NCBI GenBank assembly: GCA_965248265.1 | Contig: CBDFJF010000002.1 | Coordinates: 512,001 to 576,000, forward strand | Source: Candidatus Latescibacterota bacterium | Lineage (GTDB): Bacteria > Latescibacterota > UBA2968 > UBA8231 | Length of the DNA stretch: 64,000 nt | Reading direction: 5' to 3' | In this document: positions 46,121-52,876 of the stretch, piece after piece | Position numbering within the stretch: the first letter of the stretch is position 1 | How the letters are laid out: the number at the start of each line of letters is the position of its first letter | Notes under the pieces: generated by a model | Told to the model about the DNA's origin: nothing | Database searches by the model: none | What the model saw: the letters and a program-made list of their open reading frames with translations, nothing else | Program-made: the position numbers and the translations under genes

Positions 46121-47104
46121 GTGGCTTCTTACATCACCCGGCGTCTGCTGGGAATGATACCGACGCTGTTCCTCATCTCCGTGATCAGCTTCGTGCTGAT
46201 ACAGCTGCCACCCGGAGACATCATCGAGTCCACCATCCAGGATTTGCAGCAGCAGGGCCAGCACGTCTCCATCGAGCGTATCGCGGCGATCAGAGCCATG
46301 TACCATCTGGATGATCCGATGCCCATTCAGTACGTCCGCTGGATCAGCGGCTTCATGCGCGGAGACATGGGCTACTCCCTCGTTTACCAGCAGCCGGTGA
46401 ACCAACTGATCAGCGAGCGTTTGCTGCTCACGGTGTTGGTGGCCCTGGGCAGCGTGCTGTTCACCTGGTCACTGGCGTTGCCGATCGGCATCTATTCTGC
46501 GGTAAGACAGTATTCGCTGCTCGATTACACGATGACGGTGTTTGCTCTGCTCGGTATGGCCACGCCAGGGTTCATGCTGGCCCTGCTCATCATGTACGGT
46601 GCCCATAGTTGGTTCGGGATCAGCGTCGGCGGGTTGTTCTCGCCTGAGTTCATCGACGTGCCGTGGACGCTGGCACGGGTCGCGGATCTGCTCAAACATA
46701 TATGGGCCCCCATGGTTGTACTGGGTGTGTCCGGTACGGCCGGCATGATCCGCATCATGCGCGCCAACCTTCTGGATGAACTCAAGAAGCCATACGTGGT
46801 CACAGCCAGGGCCAAGGGTTTGCGGCCGGCCAGGCTGATCATCAAATACCCACTGCGGCTCGCCATCAACCCGTTCATCTCGACCATTGGCTGGATGCTG
46901 CCGGCCCTGTTCTCGGGCTCGGCCATCGTCGCCGTGGTCATGGACCTGCCCACCACCGGACCTTTGCTGCTGGAGGCGCTGATGAGTCAGGACATGTACC
47001 TGGCCGGCAGCTTCATTCTCATCCTCAGTACCTTGACCGTCATCGGCACGCTGATCTCCGATCTGCTGCTGGCGGTCGTGGATCCGCGCATCCGTCATGA
47101 GTGA
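46121..47104 (+). CDS. DppB/OppB-like ABC permease
   Basis: YITRRLL, LPPGD, EAA-like LDELKKPYVVTARAKGL, DPRIR. Confidence 0.92.
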   Translation: MASYITRRLLGMIPTLFLISVISFVLIQLPPGDIIESTIQDLQQQGQHVSIERIAAIRAMYHLDDPMPIQYVRWISGFMRGDMGYSLVYQQPVNQLISERLLLTVLVALGSVLFTWSLALPIGIYSAVRQYSLLDYTMTVFALLGMATPGFMLALLIMYGAHSWFGISVGGLFSPEFIDVPWTLARVADLLKHIWAPMVVLGVSGTAGMIRIMRANLLDELKKPYVVTARAKGLRPARLIIKYPLRLAINPFISTIGWMLPALFSGSAIVAVVMDLPTTGPLLLEALMSQDMYLAGSFILILSTLTVIGTLISDLLLAVVDPRIRHE

Positions 47105-48197
47105 ATCGCGCAAGCCTGATCTGGAGACGGCGTCGCAGTGGCAGCTGATGTGGGTGCGTTTCAGGCGTCATCGGCTGGCCATGATTTCAGCTACGGTGTT
47201 GTTCTTCCTATACCTGCTCGCCGCCTTTTGTGAGATTGCAGCGCCCTACGGGCCCAGCCAGCGCAACCCCCGCACCATCCACTGCCCGCCGCAGTCTCTG
47301 CGTTTCATCGACGATGATGGAAAAGTCCACCTGCGCCCGTTCGTATACGGCTACAAGCTCTCCGTGGATCCAGAAACCTGGCGACGTGAGTACACCCCTG
47401 ACCCGCAGGCGCGTTTCCCGGTGCGGTTCCTGACTGACGGCGCGCCCTACGAATTCTGGGGTCTGATCCCGGGGCGCCTGCGACTGTTTGGCACGCCAGA
47501 CGGCGGCTACATCCACCTCTTCGGCACGGACAAGCTGGGACGGGATCTGTTCAGCCGGATTCTGTACGGAGGAAGGGTCTCGCTGACCCTCGGACTGCTG
47601 GGTGTGCTGCTGACGTTCGTCTTCGGTATCATCCTGGGAGGGGTGGCGGGCTACCTGGGTGGATGGGTCGACAACCTGACCCAGCGATTGATCGAGGTTA
47701 TTCAATGCATGCCCCAGCTGCCGTTGTGGATGGCCCTGAGCGCGGCGCTACCTGCGGGATGGTCGGGCATCAAGGTCTACTTCGGCATCACTGTCATTCT
47801 CTCCTTCCTGGGGTGGACGGGGTTGGCGCGGGTGGTGCGGGGCAAGTTTCTGTCGCTGCGTGAGGAAGAATTCGTGGTCGCAGCCAGGCTGCTTGGCGCC
47901 GGGCGCCGGCGTGTCATCTTCCGCCACATGCTGCCTTCGTTTCTCAGCCACATCATCACCTCGGCCACCCTGGCCGTCCCCGGGATGATCCTCGGTGAAA
48001 CCGCGCTCAGTTTTCTGGGGATCGGGTTGAGGCCTCCGGTAGTAAGCTGGGGAGTGTTGCTGCAACAGGCGCAAAACTACCAGGCCGTGGTGATGACGCC
48101 ATGGCTGTTGCTGCCCGGCGTATTCGTTATACTGGCCGTGCTGGCTTTCAATCTCATCGGTGACGGGTTGCGGGATGCAGCTGATCCCTACAACTGA
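47097..48197 (+). CDS. DppC/OppC-like ABC permease
   Basis: GTDKLGRDLFSR, LREEEFVVAARLLGA, ETALSFLG, GDGLRDAADP. Confidence 0.92.
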   Translation: MSESRKPDLETASQWQLMWVRFRRHRLAMISATVLFFLYLLAAFCEIAAPYGPSQRNPRTIHCPPQSLRFIDDDGKVHLRPFVYGYKLSVDPETWRREYTPDPQARFPVRFLTDGAPYEFWGLIPGRLRLFGTPDGGYIHLFGTDKLGRDLFSRILYGGRVSLTLGLLGVLLTFVFGIILGGVAGYLGGWVDNLTQRLIEVIQCMPQLPLWMALSAALPAGWSGIKVYFGITVILSFLGWTGLARVVRGKFLSLREEEFVVAARLLGAGRRRVIFRHMLPSFLSHIITSATLAVPGMILGETALSFLGIGLRPPVVSWGVLLQQAQNYQAVVMTPWLLLPGVFVILAVLAFNLIGDGLRDAADPYN

Positions 48198-48397
48198 GGT
48201 TGATGCTCGTTGCAGCGAACTCACGGGTCCAGGTAGGGCTCCCCAGTCAGGTACGTGATCGGCCTCACTAGGTCCTGGCGAGAATGGCTACATATTTTTG
48301 TCCCATGGAGGATGATGCACCGCCCACCGGGCGGAATATCTGGAGATAGCGGACAAGCACTCAGAGCACCGGGTTGCGATGACGAAGGAGTTTCACC

Positions 48398-49249
48398 ATG
48401 GAGAATCACGTGAGGAAAATCGCAACGATCGCGCTGGCCACCGCGATGCTGGCTGGCGGAGCGTTCGCCGGCGACAACCGGAATGCTACGTTCACGATTA
48501 CCAGTTCGACGACTCTGGCTGGAGTCGGGGCCAGCGAAATCGTAGAGATCAGCATCGGTACAGACAACTGGGTCAACGTGCAGCAGGCAGACGTCACGGT
48601 CCAGGTATCGCCACCGGCTCATTTTGATGTTACGGTCGCCGGCGTCGTCCTCGGCGAGAATTTGCCGGATGCCAGTGTCTTTCCGCCTGGAAACTGGCGC
48701 GCCCTGGGTGGCCTACTGGTGGAGGGAACGAACAACCAGATCAGGGTCGGCTTCGCGCTGCTGGATCCTGATCCAGAGGCTGAAGGGCATACTGGCGCAG
48801 CCGACTTCAGGATCCTCCTGCGCACATCCAATACTCTTACCACTGACACAGAAGCAAGCGTCGTCGTCACCCAGGTCTCCCTGGGGCCCGGTGCGTTCGG
48901 GCGTGATATCGTCACGGTGAATGAAACCATCTTCATCAATCCGGCCACTCCCACTGCGGTGAGCGAGTTGCCCGGGGCCGTGCCGAATTCGTTCGAGCTC
49001 GAGCAGAACTATCCCAATCCGTTCAACCCGTCGACGAACATACGCTTCAGCGTACCGCATGAATCACCCGTACTGGTTCGAGTTTACGATGCACTTGGAA
49101 AGGTACAGGAGACCCTGGTCGATGAGGTCCTGCAGGCGGGGCGCTATACCGTCGATTTCCACGCCGCCGGCCTGGCGAGTGGGATGTATTTTTATCACAT
49201 CGAGGCGCCCGGGTTCACGAGTACGCGGAAGTCGCTACTGCTCAAGTGA
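48398..49249 (+). CDS. Secreted protein with a single beta-rich (cohesin-like) domain and T9SS-type C-terminal domain
   Basis: Signal peptide ending AFA; QNYPNPFNPSTNIRF C-terminal domain 73/89 identical to that of 36604-38700; RBS AAGGAG. Confidence 0.8.
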   Translation: MENHVRKIATIALATAMLAGGAFAGDNRNATFTITSSTTLAGVGASEIVEISIGTDNWVNVQQADVTVQVSPPAHFDVTVAGVVLGENLPDASVFPPGNWRALGGLLVEGTNNQIRVGFALLDPDPEAEGHTGAADFRILLRTSNTLTTDTEASVVVTQVSLGPGAFGRDIVTVNETIFINPATPTAVSELPGAVPNSFELEQNYPNPFNPSTNIRFSVPHESPVLVRVYDALGKVQETLVDEVLQAGRYTVDFHAAGLASGMYFYHIEAPGFTSTRKSLLLK

Positions 49250-49293
49250 GGAGACCGATAGCCTGATCGGCGCGTCCCATCGCATTCTATAAC

Positions 49294-49329
49294 AAAAAGA
49301 GCCGGACGCGCACTTGGCGTGTCCGGCTC
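49294..49329 (-). terminator. Intrinsic terminator
   Basis: 13-bp stem GAGCCGGACACGC/GCGCGTCCGGCTC (one mismatch) followed by UUUUUGUU on the minus strand. Confidence 0.8.
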
Positions 49330-49361
49330 CCCTCTATTGCTAGAGGCCATTTACGGCGGTC

Positions 49362-49397
49362 TCAGGCGCCGCACCTCTCTATATTCGGCATCATCAT
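49362..49397 (-). CDS. 11-codon small ORF MMMPNIERCGA ending in UGA (possible CxxU)
   Basis: AGGAGG directly upstream of ATG ATG ATG. Confidence 0.4.
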   Translation of the reverse strand: MMMPNIERCGA

Positions 49398-49531
49398 TTT
49401 CCTCCTGTTCTTGCCCCTTGGCGAAACGCGTTTTCGCCGGGCCTTGGGTGGAGGTGGTCGTGCGTCATCCGCACACACTGGTCTGCAGCCAGCTTCACTA
49501 TAGGTTTATCGGACCAACCATGGCTTCCTTT

Positions 49532-49560
49532 AGTATGTCGTTTTTCGGCGCGGCCGACAA
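49532..49560 (-). promoter_or_regulatory. Sigma70-like promoter TTGTCG-N17-CATACT
   Basis: -35 at 49560-49555 and -10 at 49537-49532, with an exact 17-bp spacer. Confidence 0.55.
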
Positions 49561-49636
49561 GAGCTTGAAGCGCACCCTGAGGAGATGAATGATAACCGGT
49601 AAACCGCGAGTACTCCTGACGTGAGAGGACAGACTC

Positions 49637-52600
49637 TTAGGCGGACACGGCTGGCCAATCCGACCGCTCGATCAACTCGTTGAATCCGCGGATTTCCTTG
49701 TCGATGACAGCTTGCAGGCGTCGGGCGACCTCGTCGACGTCGGTGGTGAGTTCCTCGAACAGCTCAACGGTCTGTTTCGTCGGTGCGTCGTCGGCGGCTG
49801 CGACCACGCTGATGAGTCCCCCCACCCTCGTGCACACACGCACTGGCAGCCTCAAGGCATCGATTGGACCCCGTTGCCCCGCCTGCACGAGCTCAGCCTC
49901 GATGGCTTCCAGCTCGCTGTTCAAAGCGGCGGCCGCTTCGACGATTGCCCGCCCTTCAGACGAGTCGCCTTCCCGAGCACGGTTGGACCATTCCGACACC
50001 TGCCGCTGCAGGCGACGCAGGCGATTCACCAGGTTGTTAGCCTCCGAGAGTTTGTCGCGGATGCGAACCCACAAGGCGAATTGGGCCTCGAAGTCCGCGG
50101 GTGTGGCCCTAACCCGCGGATCGTGTCTGATTTCGAACGGCTGCGTCAGTACCATGTTACCGACTTCCAACTTGACTTCATAGAGACCCGGGACAGCGAG
50201 GGGGCCATTGGCATGGCGCCGTTCGGCAAGCAAGGCCTCAGGCTTGGGCTTCAACGGGCTGTCCTCGGTGATCCGCTCGGCGCTGGGGTAGCGCATGTCC
50301 CAGACGAACCGGTTCAAGCCGGCCGCTGCGGGAACGAAGCGATCGTCTGCAGCATCCGCATCGTCAGCATCATCGTCACCCGACGCATCATCGTCGCCCG
50401 ACTCGGTGCGGCTCGAAAACGTTTTGATGGTGTCGCCGGCAGCGTCCATGAAGCTGAGCGAAATCGATTCGTCGACATCCTCACTGAGGCGGTAGTAGAT
50501 GACGGCTCCATGCGGCGGATTTTCGCCAGCATCCAGAAAGGATCGGGTCCATTCGCCGTCTTCGGTGGTGTGGTCACGGTAGGCGGCGTGTGCACCGAGT
50601 GCCACCATGTAGCCGATGTCGCCTTCCTTATTGGGCCGAATGGCTCCTACTGCCCAGTTGAGCCAGCGGCGGTACGCGGGCGCCGGCGCGAACAAGTGGG
50701 CAGCCGCAGTGAAGGCTGGATCCCGGCAGAGCTGGCGCAGGGGTGTGAGGTCGTCGAGGATCCAGAACGAGCGGCCATGGGTGGCGGCTACCAGGTCGGC
50801 GTCCTTGACGGTGAGGTCGTAGACGGGAACAACAGGCAGGTTGGTTTGCAGCTTCTGCCAGCTTTGGCCGCTGTTGAGGGAGACGCATACTCCCGTTTCC
50901 GTGCCGACATACAACAGTCCAGCGCACTCCGGGTCTTCACGCACCACGCGGGTGATTTCTCCCTCCGGAAAATCACCGCTGATATCGGTCCAGCTCTTGC
51001 CCCGATCCGTCGTCTTGAGCAGGTAGGGGTGGTAGTCGTCCAGTTTGTAGCGGGTGGCCGCCACATAAGCTGTGTCCGCGTCGTGTCTGGATGGCTCCAC
51101 GCACCCGATCCGGGCTGATTCGGGTAGACTCTCCGGCGTTACTTCAGTCCAACTGCCACCTGCGTTCCCGGACACATGGATCAAGCCGTCGTCTGTGCCT
51201 GCCCACAGCAGTCCCTTTTCGACCGGCGACTCGGCGAATGCGAATACGGTCCCGTAGGTTTCGGCCCCGCTTTGATCGATGGTGATGTCGCCGCCGGAGG
51301 CCAGTAGGGTCGCAGGGTCATTTCTGGACAGATCCGGAGAGATCGCCTCCCAGCTGGCGCCCTCGTTCGTCGTGCGAAAGACAACGTTGCCGGCCACGTA
51401 GAGGGTGTTGGGATCGTGTGGTGAAAAGCAGATCGGAAAGGTCCAGGAAAAGCGGTACTTGAGATCCTTCGGGTCCCAGCCGAAGTACTCCTCCGGCCAC
51501 ACGGAAACCAGACGAAGCTGTCTGGTGTGGTCATCATAGCGCTGCAGGACCCCAGCGCCGCCAGGTGAGCTACCGGTGGATCCGATGTAGACGATGTTGG
51601 CGTCATCGGGATGCACGGCGACATCGCCGCTCTCACCCGTGCCCGGTGTTTTGCAGTGGGTCCACAGAATGACGCCGTACTCGGTGGCGCTGGGCACGCT
51701 GACGCTGGAATTGTCCTGTTGGGTGGCGTAGACGCGGTAGGGAAACTGGTTGTCGGTGTCGAGCCGGTAGAACTGGGCGGTAGGCTGGTTGAATATCGTC
51801 GACCAGGAAGTGCCGCCGTTCCAGGAGACGCAAGCGCCACCGTCGTTGCCCTGGACCATACGGGCGGGATTGCGCGGGTCCAACCACAGGTCGTGGTTGT
51901 CGCCGTGCGGCGTCGTCACTTCCACGAAGGAGGAGCCGCCATCCGTGGACTTCCACATCTGCAGATTCAGTATGTAGACGGTGTCGCGATCCTGCGGGTC
52001 GGCAAACACGTGGCAGTAGTAGAACGGCCGATGGATGAGGTCCCGACTGCCGCAGACCAGTTCCCAAGTATCGCCACCGTCATCCGAGCGGTACAGGCCG
52101 GCGTCCTCGGCTTCGATGATGGCCCAGATCCTGTCGGGATCGGCCGGAGAGACGGCGACGCCGATTTTTCCTTTTAACCCCTTGGGCAACCCTGGGTTAT
52201 CGGTGAGCTCGGACCAGGAGTCACCGCCGTCGACGGAGCGCAGCAGACCGCTGTCGGGACCACCACTCGATAGGGTCCAGAAGGTGCGATAGGCCTGCCA
52301 TACACTGGCGAAGAGCCGGCGAGGGTTGTTGGGATCCATCGACAGATCGATGGCGCCCGCCCGGTCGCTGCGAAAAAGGATATTCTCCCAGTCTCGCCCA
52401 CCGTCACGGGAGCGAAACACACCGCGCTCATTGTTAGGACCAAAGGCGTGGCCGAGAGCCGCTACGTACACCAGGTCAGCGTTACTCGGATGCACTCGAA
52501 TCTTGCTGATATGCCGGGTCTCGGCGAGGCCGGCGTGGATCCATGACGCGCCCCCATCCTCGGAACGATATACACCGTCACCGTAGGAAACGTTGCCCCG

Positions 52601-52876
52601 AATCGTCGACTCACCGGTGCCGGCATACATGACATTGGGGTCGGCTTCGGACACGGCCAACGCACCGATGGCGGCGCTGTTGAAGTAGCCGTCTGAGATG
52701 TTCTCCCAGTAGCTGCCGGCGTCCGTCGTCTTCCACACGCCGCCGGCACAGGCGCCGAAATAGAAAACGGCCTGGTCGCGCGGATGACCGGCCACCGCTA
52801 CCACGCGGCCCCCGCGGGGTGGGCCGATGCAGCGCCACCGGAGTGCCTGTAGATCTGTTTGCGCAATTTGCGTCAA
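49637..52876 (-). CDS. VPS10/sortilin-BNR repeat glycosyl hydrolase-like protein
   Basis: WRCIGPPRGGRV, many S-DGG-SW Asp-boxes, HGDNH, ATHGRSFWILDD, GLNRFVWD; TTG start with RBS GAGGAG. Confidence 0.9.
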   Translation of the reverse strand: MTQIAQTDLQALRWRCIGPPRGGRVVAVAGHPRDQAVFYFGACAGGVWKTTDAGSYWENISDGYFNSAAIGALAVSEADPNVMYAGTGESTIRGNVSYGDGVYRSEDGGASWIHAGLAETRHISKIRVHPSNADLVYVAALGHAFGPNNERGVFRSRDGGRDWENILFRSDRAGAIDLSMDPNNPRRLFASVWQAYRTFWTLSSGGPDSGLLRSVDGGDSWSELTDNPGLPKGLKGKIGVAVSPADPDRIWAIIEAEDAGLYRSDDGGDTWELVCGSRDLIHRPFYYCHVFADPQDRDTVYILNLQMWKSTDGGSSFVEVTTPHGDNHDLWLDPRNPARMVQGNDGGACVSWNGGTSWSTIFNQPTAQFYRLDTDNQFPYRVYATQQDNSSVSVPSATEYGVILWTHCKTPGTGESGDVAVHPDDANIVYIGSTGSSPGGAGVLQRYDDHTRQLRLVSVWPEEYFGWDPKDLKYRFSWTFPICFSPHDPNTLYVAGNVVFRTTNEGASWEAISPDLSRNDPATLLASGGDITIDQSGAETYGTVFAFAESPVEKGLLWAGTDDGLIHVSGNAGGSWTEVTPESLPESARIGCVEPSRHDADTAYVAATRYKLDDYHPYLLKTTDRGKSWTDISGDFPEGEITRVVREDPECAGLLYVGTETGVCVSLNSGQSWQKLQTNLPVVPVYDLTVKDADLVAATHGRSFWILDDLTPLRQLCRDPAFTAAAHLFAPAPAYRRWLNWAVGAIRPNKEGDIGYMVALGAHAAYRDHTTEDGEWTRSFLDAGENPPHGAVIYYRLSEDVDESISLSFMDAAGDTIKTFSSRTESGDDDASGDDDADDADAADDRFVPAAAGLNRFVWDMRYPSAERITEDSPLKPKPEALLAERRHANGPLAVPGLYEVKLEVGNMVLTQPFEIRHDPRVRATPADFEAQFALWVRIRDKLSEANNLVNRLRRLQRQVSEWSNRAREGDSSEGRAIVEAAAALNSELEAIEAELVQAGQRGPIDALRLPVRVCTRVGGLISVVAAADDAPTKQTVELFEELTTDVDEVARRLQAVIDKEIRGFNELIERSDWPAVSA

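What the first reader, a model, noticed from the sequence alone, without database searches (positions are those of the whole stretch)
49287..49560. Stand-alone small transcript encoding an 11-aa peptide ending Cys-x-x-UGA with a SECIS-like hairpin
Seen on the minus strand: promoter TTGTCG-N17-CATACT; a structured leader with an anti-SD (CCUCC, 49454-49450) able to pair with the RBS across a GGCGAAA/UUUCGCC hairpin; AGGAGG; ORF MMMPNIERCGA-UGA, with the UGA in the loop of a hairpin (UGCGGCG-CCUGAGAC-CGCCGUA); a hairpin CCUCUA-GCAA-UAGAGG whose G-first loop starts 21 nt after the UGA; then an intrinsic terminator. No gene follows on this strand. Established: CxxU is the commonest selenoprotein redox motif, and bacterial SECIS hairpins sit just 3' of the UGA with a G early in the apical loop. 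Inference: either a regulated micropeptide/sRNA, or a selenium-responsive unit in which Sec read-through (36 aa, MMMPNIERCGAUDRRKWPL..., stop at 49287) drives the ribosome into the terminator. AGAGG in the ORF can alternatively pair with CCUCU, so the RNA may switch structure. I know no described family that matches.
Basis: partly seen in the sequence, partly recalled or inferred. Interest (0 to 1): 0.72.

Follow-up and report, generated by a model that had tools for sequence, protein, structure and literature searches.

The report
Orphan small RNA with mini-ORF
This is a real, strongly conserved small RNA gene of a few marine Latescibacterota that carries a masked ribosome-binding site and a ten-codon reading frame, and its UGA is most likely an ordinary stop codon, not selenocysteine.

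Summary
The unit is a stand-alone gene of about 233 nt on the minus strand. Sequence conservation begins at the -35 hexamer and ends about 10 nt past the terminator T-run. Its two orthologues (89% and 81% identity) have unrelated neighbours, whereas homologues of the neighbouring gene are only 68-71% identical. Short contigs in three RNA libraries from three studies lie wholly inside the unit.

The family is tiny. It was found in 3 of 168 Latescibacterota species genomes and in nothing else among 185,579 species. No Rfam family matches it.

Selenocysteine is possible in principle, because selA, selB, selD and tRNA-Sec are all present. The other tests go against it:
- The Cys of CxxU is His in one orthologue.
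- The read-through frame is not kept.
- The downstream hairpin differs from this genome's two real SECIS elements: 15-nt spacer and GCAA loop, against 11-nt spacer and GGUC loop.

Best reading: a lineage-specific regulatory sRNA. Its Shine-Dalgarno (SD) sequence is sequestered, and its mini-ORF sits next to a two-state fold. Function unknown.

The parts
49532..49560 (-). Putative sigma-70-like promoter: -35 TTGTCG (49560-49555), 17-nt spacer, -10 CATACT (49537-49532)
   Evidence: Read. Alignment with the G021 copy shows that conservation starts at the -35 hexamer and the upstream sequence is unalignable. A DNA contig from a relative in run X5 matches up to 49561 and then continues as unlike sequence (tables 7 and 8). 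The consensus scan did not call it, and only 8 of 12 consensus positions match.
49291..49527 (-). Inferred transcript, about 233 nt (start near 49525, end in the T-run 49298-49291)
   Evidence: The start is inferred from the -10 position. RNA-library contigs cover 49321-49525. Covariance model R1 matches 49291-49530 at 289 bits. The ends and the strand are not shown by contigs; they are inferred from the promoter and terminator.
49460..49492 (-). Two 5'-domain hairpins: CUGG-CUGCAGA-CCAG (49492-49478) and GUGCG-GAUGA-CGCAC (49474-49460)
   Evidence: Present in the MFE folds of W and G021. The sequence is nearly identical in G021, so there is no covariation test.
49401..49454 (-). Anti-SD CCUCC (49454-49450) paired to the GGAGG of AGGAGG (49406-49401), across hairpin GGCGAAA-ACGCG-UUUCGCC (49438-49420)
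   Evidence: The probability that the SD is unpaired is 0.00-0.01 in W and G021. CCUCC and GGAGG are invariant in the sequences that include them.
49362..49397 (-). Mini-ORF MMMPNIERCGA plus UGA. The AUGs best spaced from the SD give 9-10 codons.
   Evidence: An ORF ending at the same UGA is present in 3 of 3 orthologues: MTMMGYLKRHGA in G021 and MPRHKERCGA in G011. Only 1.4-2.8% of linker shuffles give an in-frame AUG at SD spacing. Translation has not been tested.
49352..49373 (-). Hairpin 1: UGCGGCG-CCUGAGAC-CGCCGUA, with the stop UGA (49364-49362) in its loop
   Evidence: The loop is invariant except for its last base. The G-U pair becomes A-U in G021 and G-C in G011.
49331..49346 (-). Hairpin 2: CCUCUA-GCAA-UAGAGG (GNRA loop). 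Its 5' arm can instead pair with AGAGG at 49378-49374.
   Evidence: Invariant in 3 of 3 sequences. Fold energies for hairpin 2 versus the alternative are W -91.0/-90.6, G021 -89.2/-86.3 and G011 -52.9/-54.0 kcal/mol. RNAalifold chose the alternative pairing.
49291..49329 (-). Intrinsic terminator: GAGCCGGAC...GUCCGGCUC (49329-49299) followed by UUUUUGUU (49298-49291)
   Evidence: The stem folds at -24 kcal/mol. It is kept in all 3 sequences through one-sided changes. The simple scan did not call it.

Best explanation
The unit is an independently transcribed small RNA gene of about 233 nt, confined to a few marine Latescibacterota.

Shown: it has its own conserved promoter-like element and an intrinsic terminator, it is single-copy, its neighbours differ between genomes, it is far better conserved than the neighbouring coding gene, and it occurs in RNA libraries.

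Inferred mechanism: the RNA is a regulatory sRNA in which a mini-ORF acts in cis as a gate.
1. By default the strong SD (AGGAGG) is locked by the upstream CCUCC.
2. When that helix opens (trigger unknown: a ligand or protein acting on the 5' domain, or temperature), ribosomes translate a 9-12-codon frame through hairpin 1.
3. They terminate at an ordinary UGA in the loop of hairpin 1.
4. This occupies the AGAGG codons, so the downstream segment folds as the GCAA-capped hairpin 2 instead of the near-isoenergetic AGAGG:CCUCU pairing.
5. The RNA therefore has two folds, set by whether it is being translated.

The peptide itself is probably not the product, because its N-terminal residues are not conserved and its C-terminus is dictated by the hairpin. 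The UGA is not decoded as selenocysteine.
For: Boundaries and independence
- Conservation begins at the -35 hexamer and ends about 10 nt after the T-run.
- Flanking genes differ in all 3 genomes.
- A relative's DNA contig diverges just upstream of 49561.
- The unit is single-copy by BLAST in its own genome.

Constraint
- The unit is 89% (G021) and 81% (G011, 3' half only) identical. Homologues of the neighbouring 1079-aa gene in 4 of 4 genomes tested are 68-71% identical.

RNA
- Five short contigs (79-173 nt) from 3 RNA libraries of 3 studies lie wholly within 49321-49525, with 1-3 differences each.

Structure
- Fold z-score is -2.85.
- The SD is fully paired in W and G021, and the two 3' folds differ by 0.4 to 2.9 kcal/mol.

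ORF
- An AUG 6-7 nt after GGAGG, in frame with the same UGA, is present in 3 of 3 sequences despite an indel and many substitutions in the linker. Only 1.4-2.8% of shuffled linkers do this.

Not Sec
- See the first rival explanation.
Against: - Only three orthologues are known, and one is cut by a contig end. Among them, 0 of 49 RNAalifold pairs show a change on both sides, so the structure rests on thermodynamics and one-sided changes.
- The consensus scan called no promoter and no terminator.
- Contigs cannot show the strand, the ends or the level of an RNA.
- Translation of the ORF is untested. W and G021 share their AUG cluster by descent, so the ORF evidence amounts to about two independent observations.
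- No convincing antisense target was found in the genome: the best off-target word is 16 nt at E 0.38.
- The patchy distribution (3 of 168 genomes, 1 of 3 in genus g9) could reflect horizontal transfer and not constraint.
- The trigger and the output of the proposed switch are unknown.
Confidence: 0.5

Rival explanations
1. Purely non-coding structured sRNA. The AGGAGG:CCUCC pairing is just a helix, the AUGs and the UGA are incidental, and the RNA acts through its fold or through base-pairing or protein binding, without ever being translated.
For: - The most conserved parts are the hairpins and their loops, not the codons. The peptide's C-terminus coincides with hairpin 1, and the peptide's N-terminal part is the least conserved stretch of the RNA.
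- The SD is predicted to be paired essentially all the time.
- The only candidate structural analogue (L038, found by the covariance model alone) has no AUG, GUG or UUG at SD spacing, only AUC.
Against: - In 3 of 3 orthologues a consensus AGGAGG/AAGGAGG is followed at 6-7 nt by an AUG in frame with the loop UGA, and this holds across an indel.
- The start codons are predicted to be mostly unpaired.
Confidence: 0.3
2. Micropeptide gene. The 9-12-residue peptide (...ERCGA) is the functional product, and the RNA structure only regulates its synthesis.
For: - Strong SD, conserved ORF length (10 codons from the best-spaced AUG in each sequence) and a conserved C-terminal R-[C/H]-G-A.
- The unit has its own promoter and terminator.
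Against: - The N-terminal residues differ completely between orthologues: PNIE, GYLK and PRHKE. The only Cys becomes His in G021.
- The conserved C-terminal codons are the 5' arm of an RNA hairpin, and one change there (G-U to A-U) is a pairing-preserving change.
- No processing, export or modification genes are shared among the three loci.
Confidence: 0.1
3. Selenium-responsive unit. The UGA is decoded as Sec (CxxU micropeptide), or Sec-dependent read-through drives ribosomes into the terminator.
For: - The genome has selA (560.9 bits), selB (332.8 bits), selD (352.2 bits, itself with one in-frame TGA) and tRNA-Sec, and a TGA-containing fdhA.
- The UGA is kept in 3 of 3 orthologues, and a hairpin with a G-first loop follows it.
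Against: - The Cys of CxxU is His in G021.
- The read-through frame is the same only for 11 codons and then shifts in G011 because of a 1-nt indel. Its stop codon lies beyond the terminator T-run.
- This genome's two real SECIS elements (fdhA, selD) both have UGA, an 11-nt spacer, a 6-7-bp stem and a GGUC(U) loop. The unit has a 15-nt spacer and a GCAA tetraloop.
- The UGA sits in an invariant hairpin loop, so its conservation is explained by the RNA structure.
- The candidate analogue L038 has UAG at the equivalent loop position. This is weak evidence, because the homology of L038 is unproven.
Confidence: 0.03
4. Orphan cis-regulatory leader (ribosome-dependent attenuator). Read-through of the terminator controls antisense transcription into the convergent downstream gene, or the unit is a remnant of a leader that lost its gene.
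For: - The layout (mini-ORF, alternative hairpins, terminator) is that of classical leader-peptide attenuators.
- In W and G011 a convergent gene ends within about 40 nt of the terminator.
Against: - The two alternative folds both leave the terminator stem intact, so no anti-terminator is evident.
- The convergent genes are unrelated: a T9SS-tail protein in W and an apparent membrane permease, by its translation, in G011. G021 has no clear convergent gene.
- A dead remnant would not stay 81-89% identical while homologues of the neighbouring gene are about 70% identical.
Confidence: 0.05

Closest known systems
Dual-function (coding) sRNAs such as SgrS/SgrT, RNAIII/delta-haemolysin, SR1/SR1P, Spot 42/SpfP (recalled, not from a call)
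   Same: Both are stand-alone genes with their own promoter and an intrinsic terminator. Both are structured RNAs of about 200-500 nt that also carry a short ORF with an SD.
   Different: The ORF here is only 9-12 codons and its peptide is not conserved, so translation would act in cis and would not make a product. No base-pairing target is known. There is no sequence or Rfam relationship.
Leader-peptide attenuators and ribosome-sensing leaders (trpL, pheL, ermCL, cat-86 leader; recalled)
   Same: Both have a mini-ORF of about 10 codons, alternative hairpins that overlap ORF codons, and an intrinsic terminator directly downstream.
   Different: No gene follows on the same strand in W or G011. 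The alternative folds do not disrupt the terminator. The unit keeps its own promoter and moves between genomic contexts.
Bacterial SECIS elements (this genome's fdhA and selD; E. coli fdhF recalled)
   Same: A UGA followed by a short hairpin whose apical loop begins with G, in an organism with complete Sec machinery.
   Different: The spacer is 15 nt, not 11, and the loop is GCAA, not GGUC(U). The UGA itself lies in the loop of another hairpin. The CxxU motif and the read-through frame are not conserved.
malK-I RNA motif (Rfam RF03069; Weinberg et al. 2017, PMC5737381, passages seen)
   Same: It is the only Rfam match at E up to 1. The order of elements is similar (AGGAGGA, then a hairpin resembling GGUGCGGC...GAGAC...GCCGUAA, then two more hairpins).
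   Different: The score is 22.9 bits against a gathering score of 60.3, with E 0.46 for a 5-kb search. Nothing was found at genome scale. There were 0 matches in 151 Latescibacterota genomes. malK-I lies in 5' UTRs of malK genes, whereas no gene follows here. The supplement of that paper, which may give its taxonomic range, could not be seen.

Membership tests
Selenoprotein gene / bacterial SECIS | Sec-decoding machinery (selA, selB, selC, selD) in the genome | tested here: met
   selA scores 560.9 bits, selB 332.8 bits and selD 352.2 bits, all over their curated cut-offs. ARAGORN finds tRNA-SeC(tca) at C1:3016780-3016878.
Selenoprotein gene / bacterial SECIS | SECIS hairpin at the spacing and with the apical loop used by the organism's own selenoprotein genes | tested here: not met
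   fdhA and selD have UGA, an 11-nt spacer, a 6-7-bp stem and a GGUC(U) loop. The unit has UGA, a 15-nt spacer, a 6-bp stem and a GCAA loop. There are only 2 reference elements.
Selenoprotein gene / bacterial SECIS | Redox motif (CxxU) and the sequence downstream of the UGA conserved as protein in homologues, or Cys replacing Sec | tested here: not met
   The endings are RCGA-UGA (W, G011) and RHGA-UGA (G021). The read-through frames agree for 11 codons and then diverge in G011. No homologue has Cys at the UGA.
malK-I RNA (RF03069) | Score at or above the Rfam gathering threshold | tested here: not met
   22.9 bits against 60.3. No match at E up to 10 in the whole genome. 0 of 151 genomes in the phylum match.
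malK-I RNA (RF03069) | Location in the 5' UTR of a malK-type transporter ATPase gene | tested here: not met
   No gene follows on the strand. A convergent gene ends at 49249. The definition is taken from PMC5737381 passages.
Stand-alone bacterial sRNA gene | Own promoter and intrinsic terminator, with conservation limited to the unit and independent of its neighbours | tested here: met
   (the X5 contig diverges at 49561). The promoter is inferred, not mapped, and the simple scan is negative.
Stand-alone bacterial sRNA gene | Presence as RNA | tested here: inconclusive
   Contigs of 79-173 nt from 3 RNA libraries of 3 studies lie within 49321-49525. Contigs cannot show the strand, the ends or the level, and RNA libraries can hold DNA.
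Dual-function sRNA | The ORF is translated | not testable with these tools
   There is only indirect support: the SD and AUG spacing and the frame are kept in 3 of 3 sequences.
Leader-peptide transcription attenuator | A regulated gene downstream on the same strand, and an anti-terminator fold | tested here: not met
   W and G011 have convergent downstream genes. Both alternative folds keep the terminator.
Cold-shock protein gene / cspA mRNA relic | Detectable similarity to csp genes in an unbiased reciprocal search | tested here: not met
   An nhmmer profile of 20 csp genes was run against the genome. Of 336 hits at E up to 100, none fell on the unit. Local alignment to the 6 csp genes of the same genome gave z from -0.40 to 0.87.
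6S RNA (RF00013) | Match to the 6S model; rod-like fold with a central bubble | tested here: not met
   RF00013 gives no match at E up to 1 anywhere in the genome, the unit included. The predicted fold is multi-hairpin. The unit is present in only 3 of 76 genomes of the family.

The most novel reading that the evidence does not exclude
The RNA is an abundant trans-acting sensor of what happens at a stop codon. The invariant UGA, presented in a hairpin loop, is a decision point: RF2 termination on one side, Sec insertion or near-cognate read-through on the other. The ribosome's fate there selects between two near-isoenergetic folds of the 3' domain. The sRNA would thereby report selenium, RF2 or translation status to its targets.
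Probability: 0.05. Interest if true: 0.8.

Novelty: new member of a known kind. Interest (0 to 1): 0.38.

Why it matters
Latescibacterota have no cultured model organism. My searches of the held literature found no described regulatory RNA for the phylum. This unit would be a first candidate: a small, strongly constrained RNA that turns up in seawater and marine RNA libraries.

Its design is unusual for a gene that regulates nothing in cis. It combines a masked SD, a ten-codon frame that ends in a hairpin loop, and a two-state fold. That makes it a compact test case for translation-gated sRNA switches. It can be tested with reporters in a heterologous host.

The work also settles the more eye-catching reading. 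Although the organism has a complete selenocysteine system, the CxxU/SECIS resemblance is coincidental.

Tried and rejected
**csp relic.** Both covariance models gave weak full-length hits (17-30 bits) in genus g14. These turned out to be cspA coding genes (Rfam cspA hit; translations).
- A resemblance remained after removing the terminators: z 4.5 and 3.7, and the unit's RGAAPETAVNGL-stop against the csp KKGPAAESVVAL-stop.
- Those sequences had been picked by the search itself, so the z-scores are inflated. The unbiased tests were negative.
- Rejected.

**Paralogue L038 (G000:C2:2041756-2041972, minus strand).** R1 scores it 25.4 bits. It has the same order of elements, and 7 pairs change on both sides in an alignment fitted to the model.
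- Control hits of the same models (L053, L060) reach similar z-scores with terminators included, and L038 falls to z 2.68 without its terminator.
- nhmmer finds only its terminator, at E 74.
- It has no homologue in 75 other genomes of the family.
- Left as unproven and not used as support.

**malK-I.** Chance-level.

**6S RNA.** No match.

**Wider homologue hunts.**
- Genome contigs pattern scan: only the two known MAGs.
- Metagenome contigs pattern scan: 4 AT-rich unrelated contigs, none matching R1.
- Phylum pattern scan: 5 matches in 4 of 168 genomes. Three are the known W, G021 and L038 sites. Two lie in sequence that looks coding. The reversed control pattern gave 2 hits.
- R2 on the family (76 genomes) and the phylum (151 genomes): no new member. 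The best new hit, L053, is the 3' end of a CDS plus its terminator.
- G027's 25-nt BLAST hit lies in sequence that reads as coding.

**Antisense target search by blastn-short.** Nothing above chance.

**Longer ORFs in the unit (34 and 38 aa).** A 1-nt indel in G021 breaks them.

**Sequencing runs.**
- In the three RNA libraries no contig covered 49100-49315 or 49532-49728, while DNA run X5 covers 29 of the 30 bins.
- The X16 and X18 contigs both stop at 49504/49503 without loose ends, where the DNA contig goes on. That is at most a weak hint of an RNA end or of an assembly break.

**Other limits.** The supplement of PMC5737381 was not available.
Full report
**What is there.**
- -35 TTGTCG (49560-49555), a 17-nt spacer, and -10 CATACT (49537-49532).
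- CCUCC (49454-49450), which can pair with the GGAGG of AGGAGG (49406-49401) across the hairpin GGCGAAA-ACGCG-UUUCGCC (49438-49420).
- The ORF from ATG 49397 to TGA 49364-49362 (MMMPNIERCGA).
- Hairpin 1, UGCGGCG-CCUGAGAC-CGCCGUA (49373-49352), with the UGA in its loop.
- Hairpin 2, CCUCUA-GCAA-UAGAGG (49346-49331).
- A terminator stem (49329-49299, -24 kcal/mol) followed by UUUUUGUU.

The 256-nt stretch folds better than its shuffles (z -2.85; 2 of 200 shuffles fold as well). A simple consensus scan called neither the promoter nor the terminator. The promoter matches only 8 of 12 consensus positions, and the terminator stem has an internal mismatch.

On this strand the upstream gene encodes a 1079-aa Sortilin/BNR-repeat protein ending at 49637. 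Downstream lies a convergent gene for a protein with a T9SS sorting tail, ending at 49249. Nothing on this strand could therefore be regulated in cis.

**It is a discrete, conserved gene.** The window is G000:C2:512001-576000 of a 7.3-Mb genome, and the unit is single-copy by BLAST. BLAST of 61 related genomes found two orthologues:
- G021: 89% identity over 267 nt.
- G011: 81% identity over the 3' 132 nt, because a contig end cuts off the rest.

A pattern scan of 185,579 species genomes recovered exactly these two. Both are labelled Candidatus Latescibacterota MAGs.

In the alignment, identity starts at the -35 hexamer and stops about 10 nt after the T-run. The flanks cannot be aligned. The neighbours differ in every genome:
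- G021: a divergent gene whose product looks like an aldehyde dehydrogenase.
- G011: a convergent gene whose product looks like a membrane permease (these functions are judged by eye from the translations, with no family search).

Homologues of the neighbouring 1079-aa gene in G021, G011, G008 and G028 are only 68-71% identical at the DNA level, and in G021 they lie on other contigs. The unit is thus far better conserved than an ordinary coding gene between these genera.

A 3198-nt DNA contig from a relative, in a seawater-metagenome run (X5), matches 49106-49561 and then continues as unlike sequence. This places the upstream edge of the unit at the -35 hexamer. Of this contig's 17 listed differences, 14 lie in 49147-49290 and 3 in the 270-nt unit. 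Nine of its 26 differences are not listed, so these counts are only indicative.

**RNA evidence.** Three runs recorded as metatranscriptomic, from three studies and labelled seawater or marine metagenome, each hold short contigs that lie wholly inside the unit:

| Run | Region covered | Contig length |
|---|---|---|
| X16 | 49332-49504 | 173 nt |
| X18 | 49340-49503 | 164 nt |
| X19 | 49321-49435 | 115 nt |
| X19 | 49406-49525 | 123 nt |
| X19 | 49406-49476 | 79 nt |

Each has 1-3 differences from the window. One contig reaches 49525, close to the start I infer from the -10 element. Contigs cannot show the strand, the ends or the level, so this shows presence in RNA libraries and nothing more.

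**How wide is the family?** Very narrow.
- Covariance model R1, built from the three sequences, found only those three as strong hits among 76 genomes of the family.
- A descriptor pattern (CCUCC, gap, GGAGG, gap, the 5' side of hairpin 1) run over 168 genomes of the phylum found only the G000 and G021 copies (G011 lacks the 5' part), one further site in G000, and two matches in sequence that looks coding. The reversed control pattern gave two hits.
- A broader model, R2, found no new member in 76 family genomes and 151 phylum genomes.
- A scan of the metagenome collection returned four unrelated AT-rich contigs.

Presence varies within one genus: 1 of 3 genomes in g9, and the complete single-contig genome G008 lacks it. 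No Rfam family reaches its threshold in the window. At E up to 1 the only hit is malK-I at 22.9 bits against a gathering score of 60.3. That hit disappears at genome scale, and no malK-I match at E up to 1 turned up in 151 genomes of the phylum.

**Two false leads worth recording.**

*csp genes.* The weak full-length hits of both models in genus g14 are cold-shock protein genes. The resemblance is suggestive to the eye, with matching blocks and a similar C-terminal peptide in another frame. It even survives removal of the terminators (z 4.5). But those sequences had been selected by the search, so the z-scores are inflated. A csp DNA profile searched against the whole genome gives 336 hits at E up to 100 and none on the unit. 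Local alignment to the genome's six csp genes gives z from -0.40 to 0.87. I reject a csp origin.

*L038.* A second site in G000 (L038) has the same order of elements and apparently compensatory stems in a model-fitted alignment. Against this:
- Control hits of the same models score similarly when terminators are included.
- nhmmer sees only its terminator.
- It has no homologue in the 75 other genomes of the family.

I leave it as an unproven analogue.

**Selenocysteine.** The organism can decode Sec.
- selA, selB and selD score over their curated cut-offs, and selD itself has an in-frame TGA.
- ARAGORN finds tRNA-SeC.
- fdhA carries one in-frame TGA.

The other tests go against Sec.
1. The ORF ends RCGA-UGA in W and G011 but RHGA-UGA in G021, so CxxU is not conserved.
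2. Beyond the UGA the three sequences share a frame for 11 codons. A 1-nt indel then shifts G011, and the next stop lies beyond the terminator T-run.
3. The two genuine SECIS elements of this genome are alike: UGA, an 11-nt spacer, a 6-7-bp stem and a GGUC(U) apical loop. The unit has a 15-nt spacer and a GCAA tetraloop.
4. The UGA is part of an invariant hairpin loop, which by itself explains why it is conserved.

I put Sec decoding at about 3%.

**Is the mini-ORF real?** In all three orthologues a consensus SD is followed at 6-7 nt by an AUG in frame with the same UGA. From the best-spaced AUG the peptides are MMPNIERCGA, MMGYLKRHGA and MPRHKERCGA. The linker between SD and hairpin 1 is the most variable part of the RNA and contains an indel. 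Shuffling each linker gives such an arrangement in 1.4-2.8% of trials. W and G021 share their AUG cluster by descent, so this amounts to about two independent observations. The N-terminal residues are not conserved, and the C-terminal codons are the 5' arm of hairpin 1, so the peptide is unlikely to be the product. I rate translation of the frame at roughly even odds.

**Mechanism (inferred).** The SD is predicted to be paired to CCUCC essentially all the time (unpaired probability 0.00-0.01 in W and G021), while the AUGs are mostly free. Downstream, two folds are nearly isoenergetic:

| Sequence | Hairpin 1 + hairpin 2 (kcal/mol) | AGAGG:CCUCU enclosing hairpin 1 (kcal/mol) |
|---|---|---|
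| W | -91.0 | -90.6 |
| G021 | -89.2 | -86.3 |
| G011 | -52.9 | -54.0 |

RNAalifold prefers the second fold. Both folds keep the terminator, so this is not a transcription attenuator.

The simplest reading is a regulatory sRNA whose 3' domain has two states. A ribosome admitted when the SD helix opens would cover AGAGG and hairpin 1 and stop at the loop UGA, which forces the hairpin-2 state. Without translation the alternative pairing can form.

What opens the SD helix, and what each state does, are unknown. I found no antisense target above chance, and the three loci share no neighbouring genes.

**Comparison and novelty.**
- It works most like dual-function sRNAs and leader-peptide switches (recalled classes), but it is a member of no described family.
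- It fails the tests for SECIS, malK-I, csp and 6S (see the membership table).
- Full-text searches found nothing on small RNAs of Latescibacterota: one search returned 0 papers and one search returned 1 irrelevant paper.
- Of Weinberg et al. 2017 (PMC5737381) I saw passages only. Its supplement was closed.

I class the unit as a new member of a known kind: a lineage-specific sRNA gene with a mini-ORF.

**Verdict.**
- Observation: confirmed.
- Stand-alone conserved sRNA gene: about 85% likely.
- Translation-gated two-state mechanism: about 50%, conditional on very few sequences.
- Sec: about 3%.
- Interest: moderate, 0.38.

Noticed in passing
L038 1501-1717 minus (G000:C2:2041756-2041972): This intergenic unit of about 215 nt has the same order of elements: CCUCC, hairpin, GGAGG, a GAGGUGC-flanked hairpin with UAG in its loop, and a terminator. 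R1 scores it 25.4 bits. It is divergent from a gene whose product looks like a sugar-phosphate isomerase. It has no homologue in the 75 other genomes of the family.
   Followed up: partly
window 49498-49521 minus: A second tiny frame, AUG GUU GGU CCG AUA AAC CUA UAG (MVGPINL), sits right at the inferred 5' end and is preceded by AAGGAA. It is identical in G021. Probably incidental.
   Followed up: no
G000:C2:2983600-2985600 (L072) and G000:C2:1010876-1011799 (L015), outside the window: fdhA and selD each carry one in-frame TGA followed by a canonical SECIS (11-nt spacer, 6-7-bp stem, GGUC loop). The organism is a genuine selenoprotein user.
   Followed up: yes
L024-L036 and others (genus g14 csp genes): Covariance models of the unit repeatedly hit one orthologous cold-shock gene plus its terminator at 17-30 bits. 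The csp C-terminus KKGPAAESVVAL-stop resembles the unit's off-frame RGAAPETAVNGL-stop. Reciprocal profile searches were negative.
   Followed up: yes
L018 1770-2810 (G021:C5): About 1 kb downstream of the G021 copy has no convincing ORF on either strand. It might hold further non-coding features.
   Followed up: no
whole genome G000: The Rfam 6S RNA model (RF00013) finds nothing at E up to 1 in this genome, which is 92% complete. The 6S RNA of this lineage may be too divergent for the model.
   Followed up: no
L042 615-645, L043, L044 3692-3722, L045: Four metagenome contigs share CTGAGA, 9 nt and then CCTCTAGCAATAGAGG. The two I read (L042, L044) are AT-rich and nearly identical around the match. 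The shared hairpin looks like a terminator after a small gene, and it is unrelated to the unit by the covariance model.
   Followed up: partly
window 46121-49249 plus and 49637-52876 minus: Neighbouring genes: two Opp/Dpp-type ABC permeases, a 283-aa protein with a T9SS C-terminal sorting domain, and a 1079-aa Sortilin-Vps10/BNR-repeat protein. The latter has two or three homologues per genome in genus g9 (3 matches in G008, 2 in G021).
   Followed up: partly
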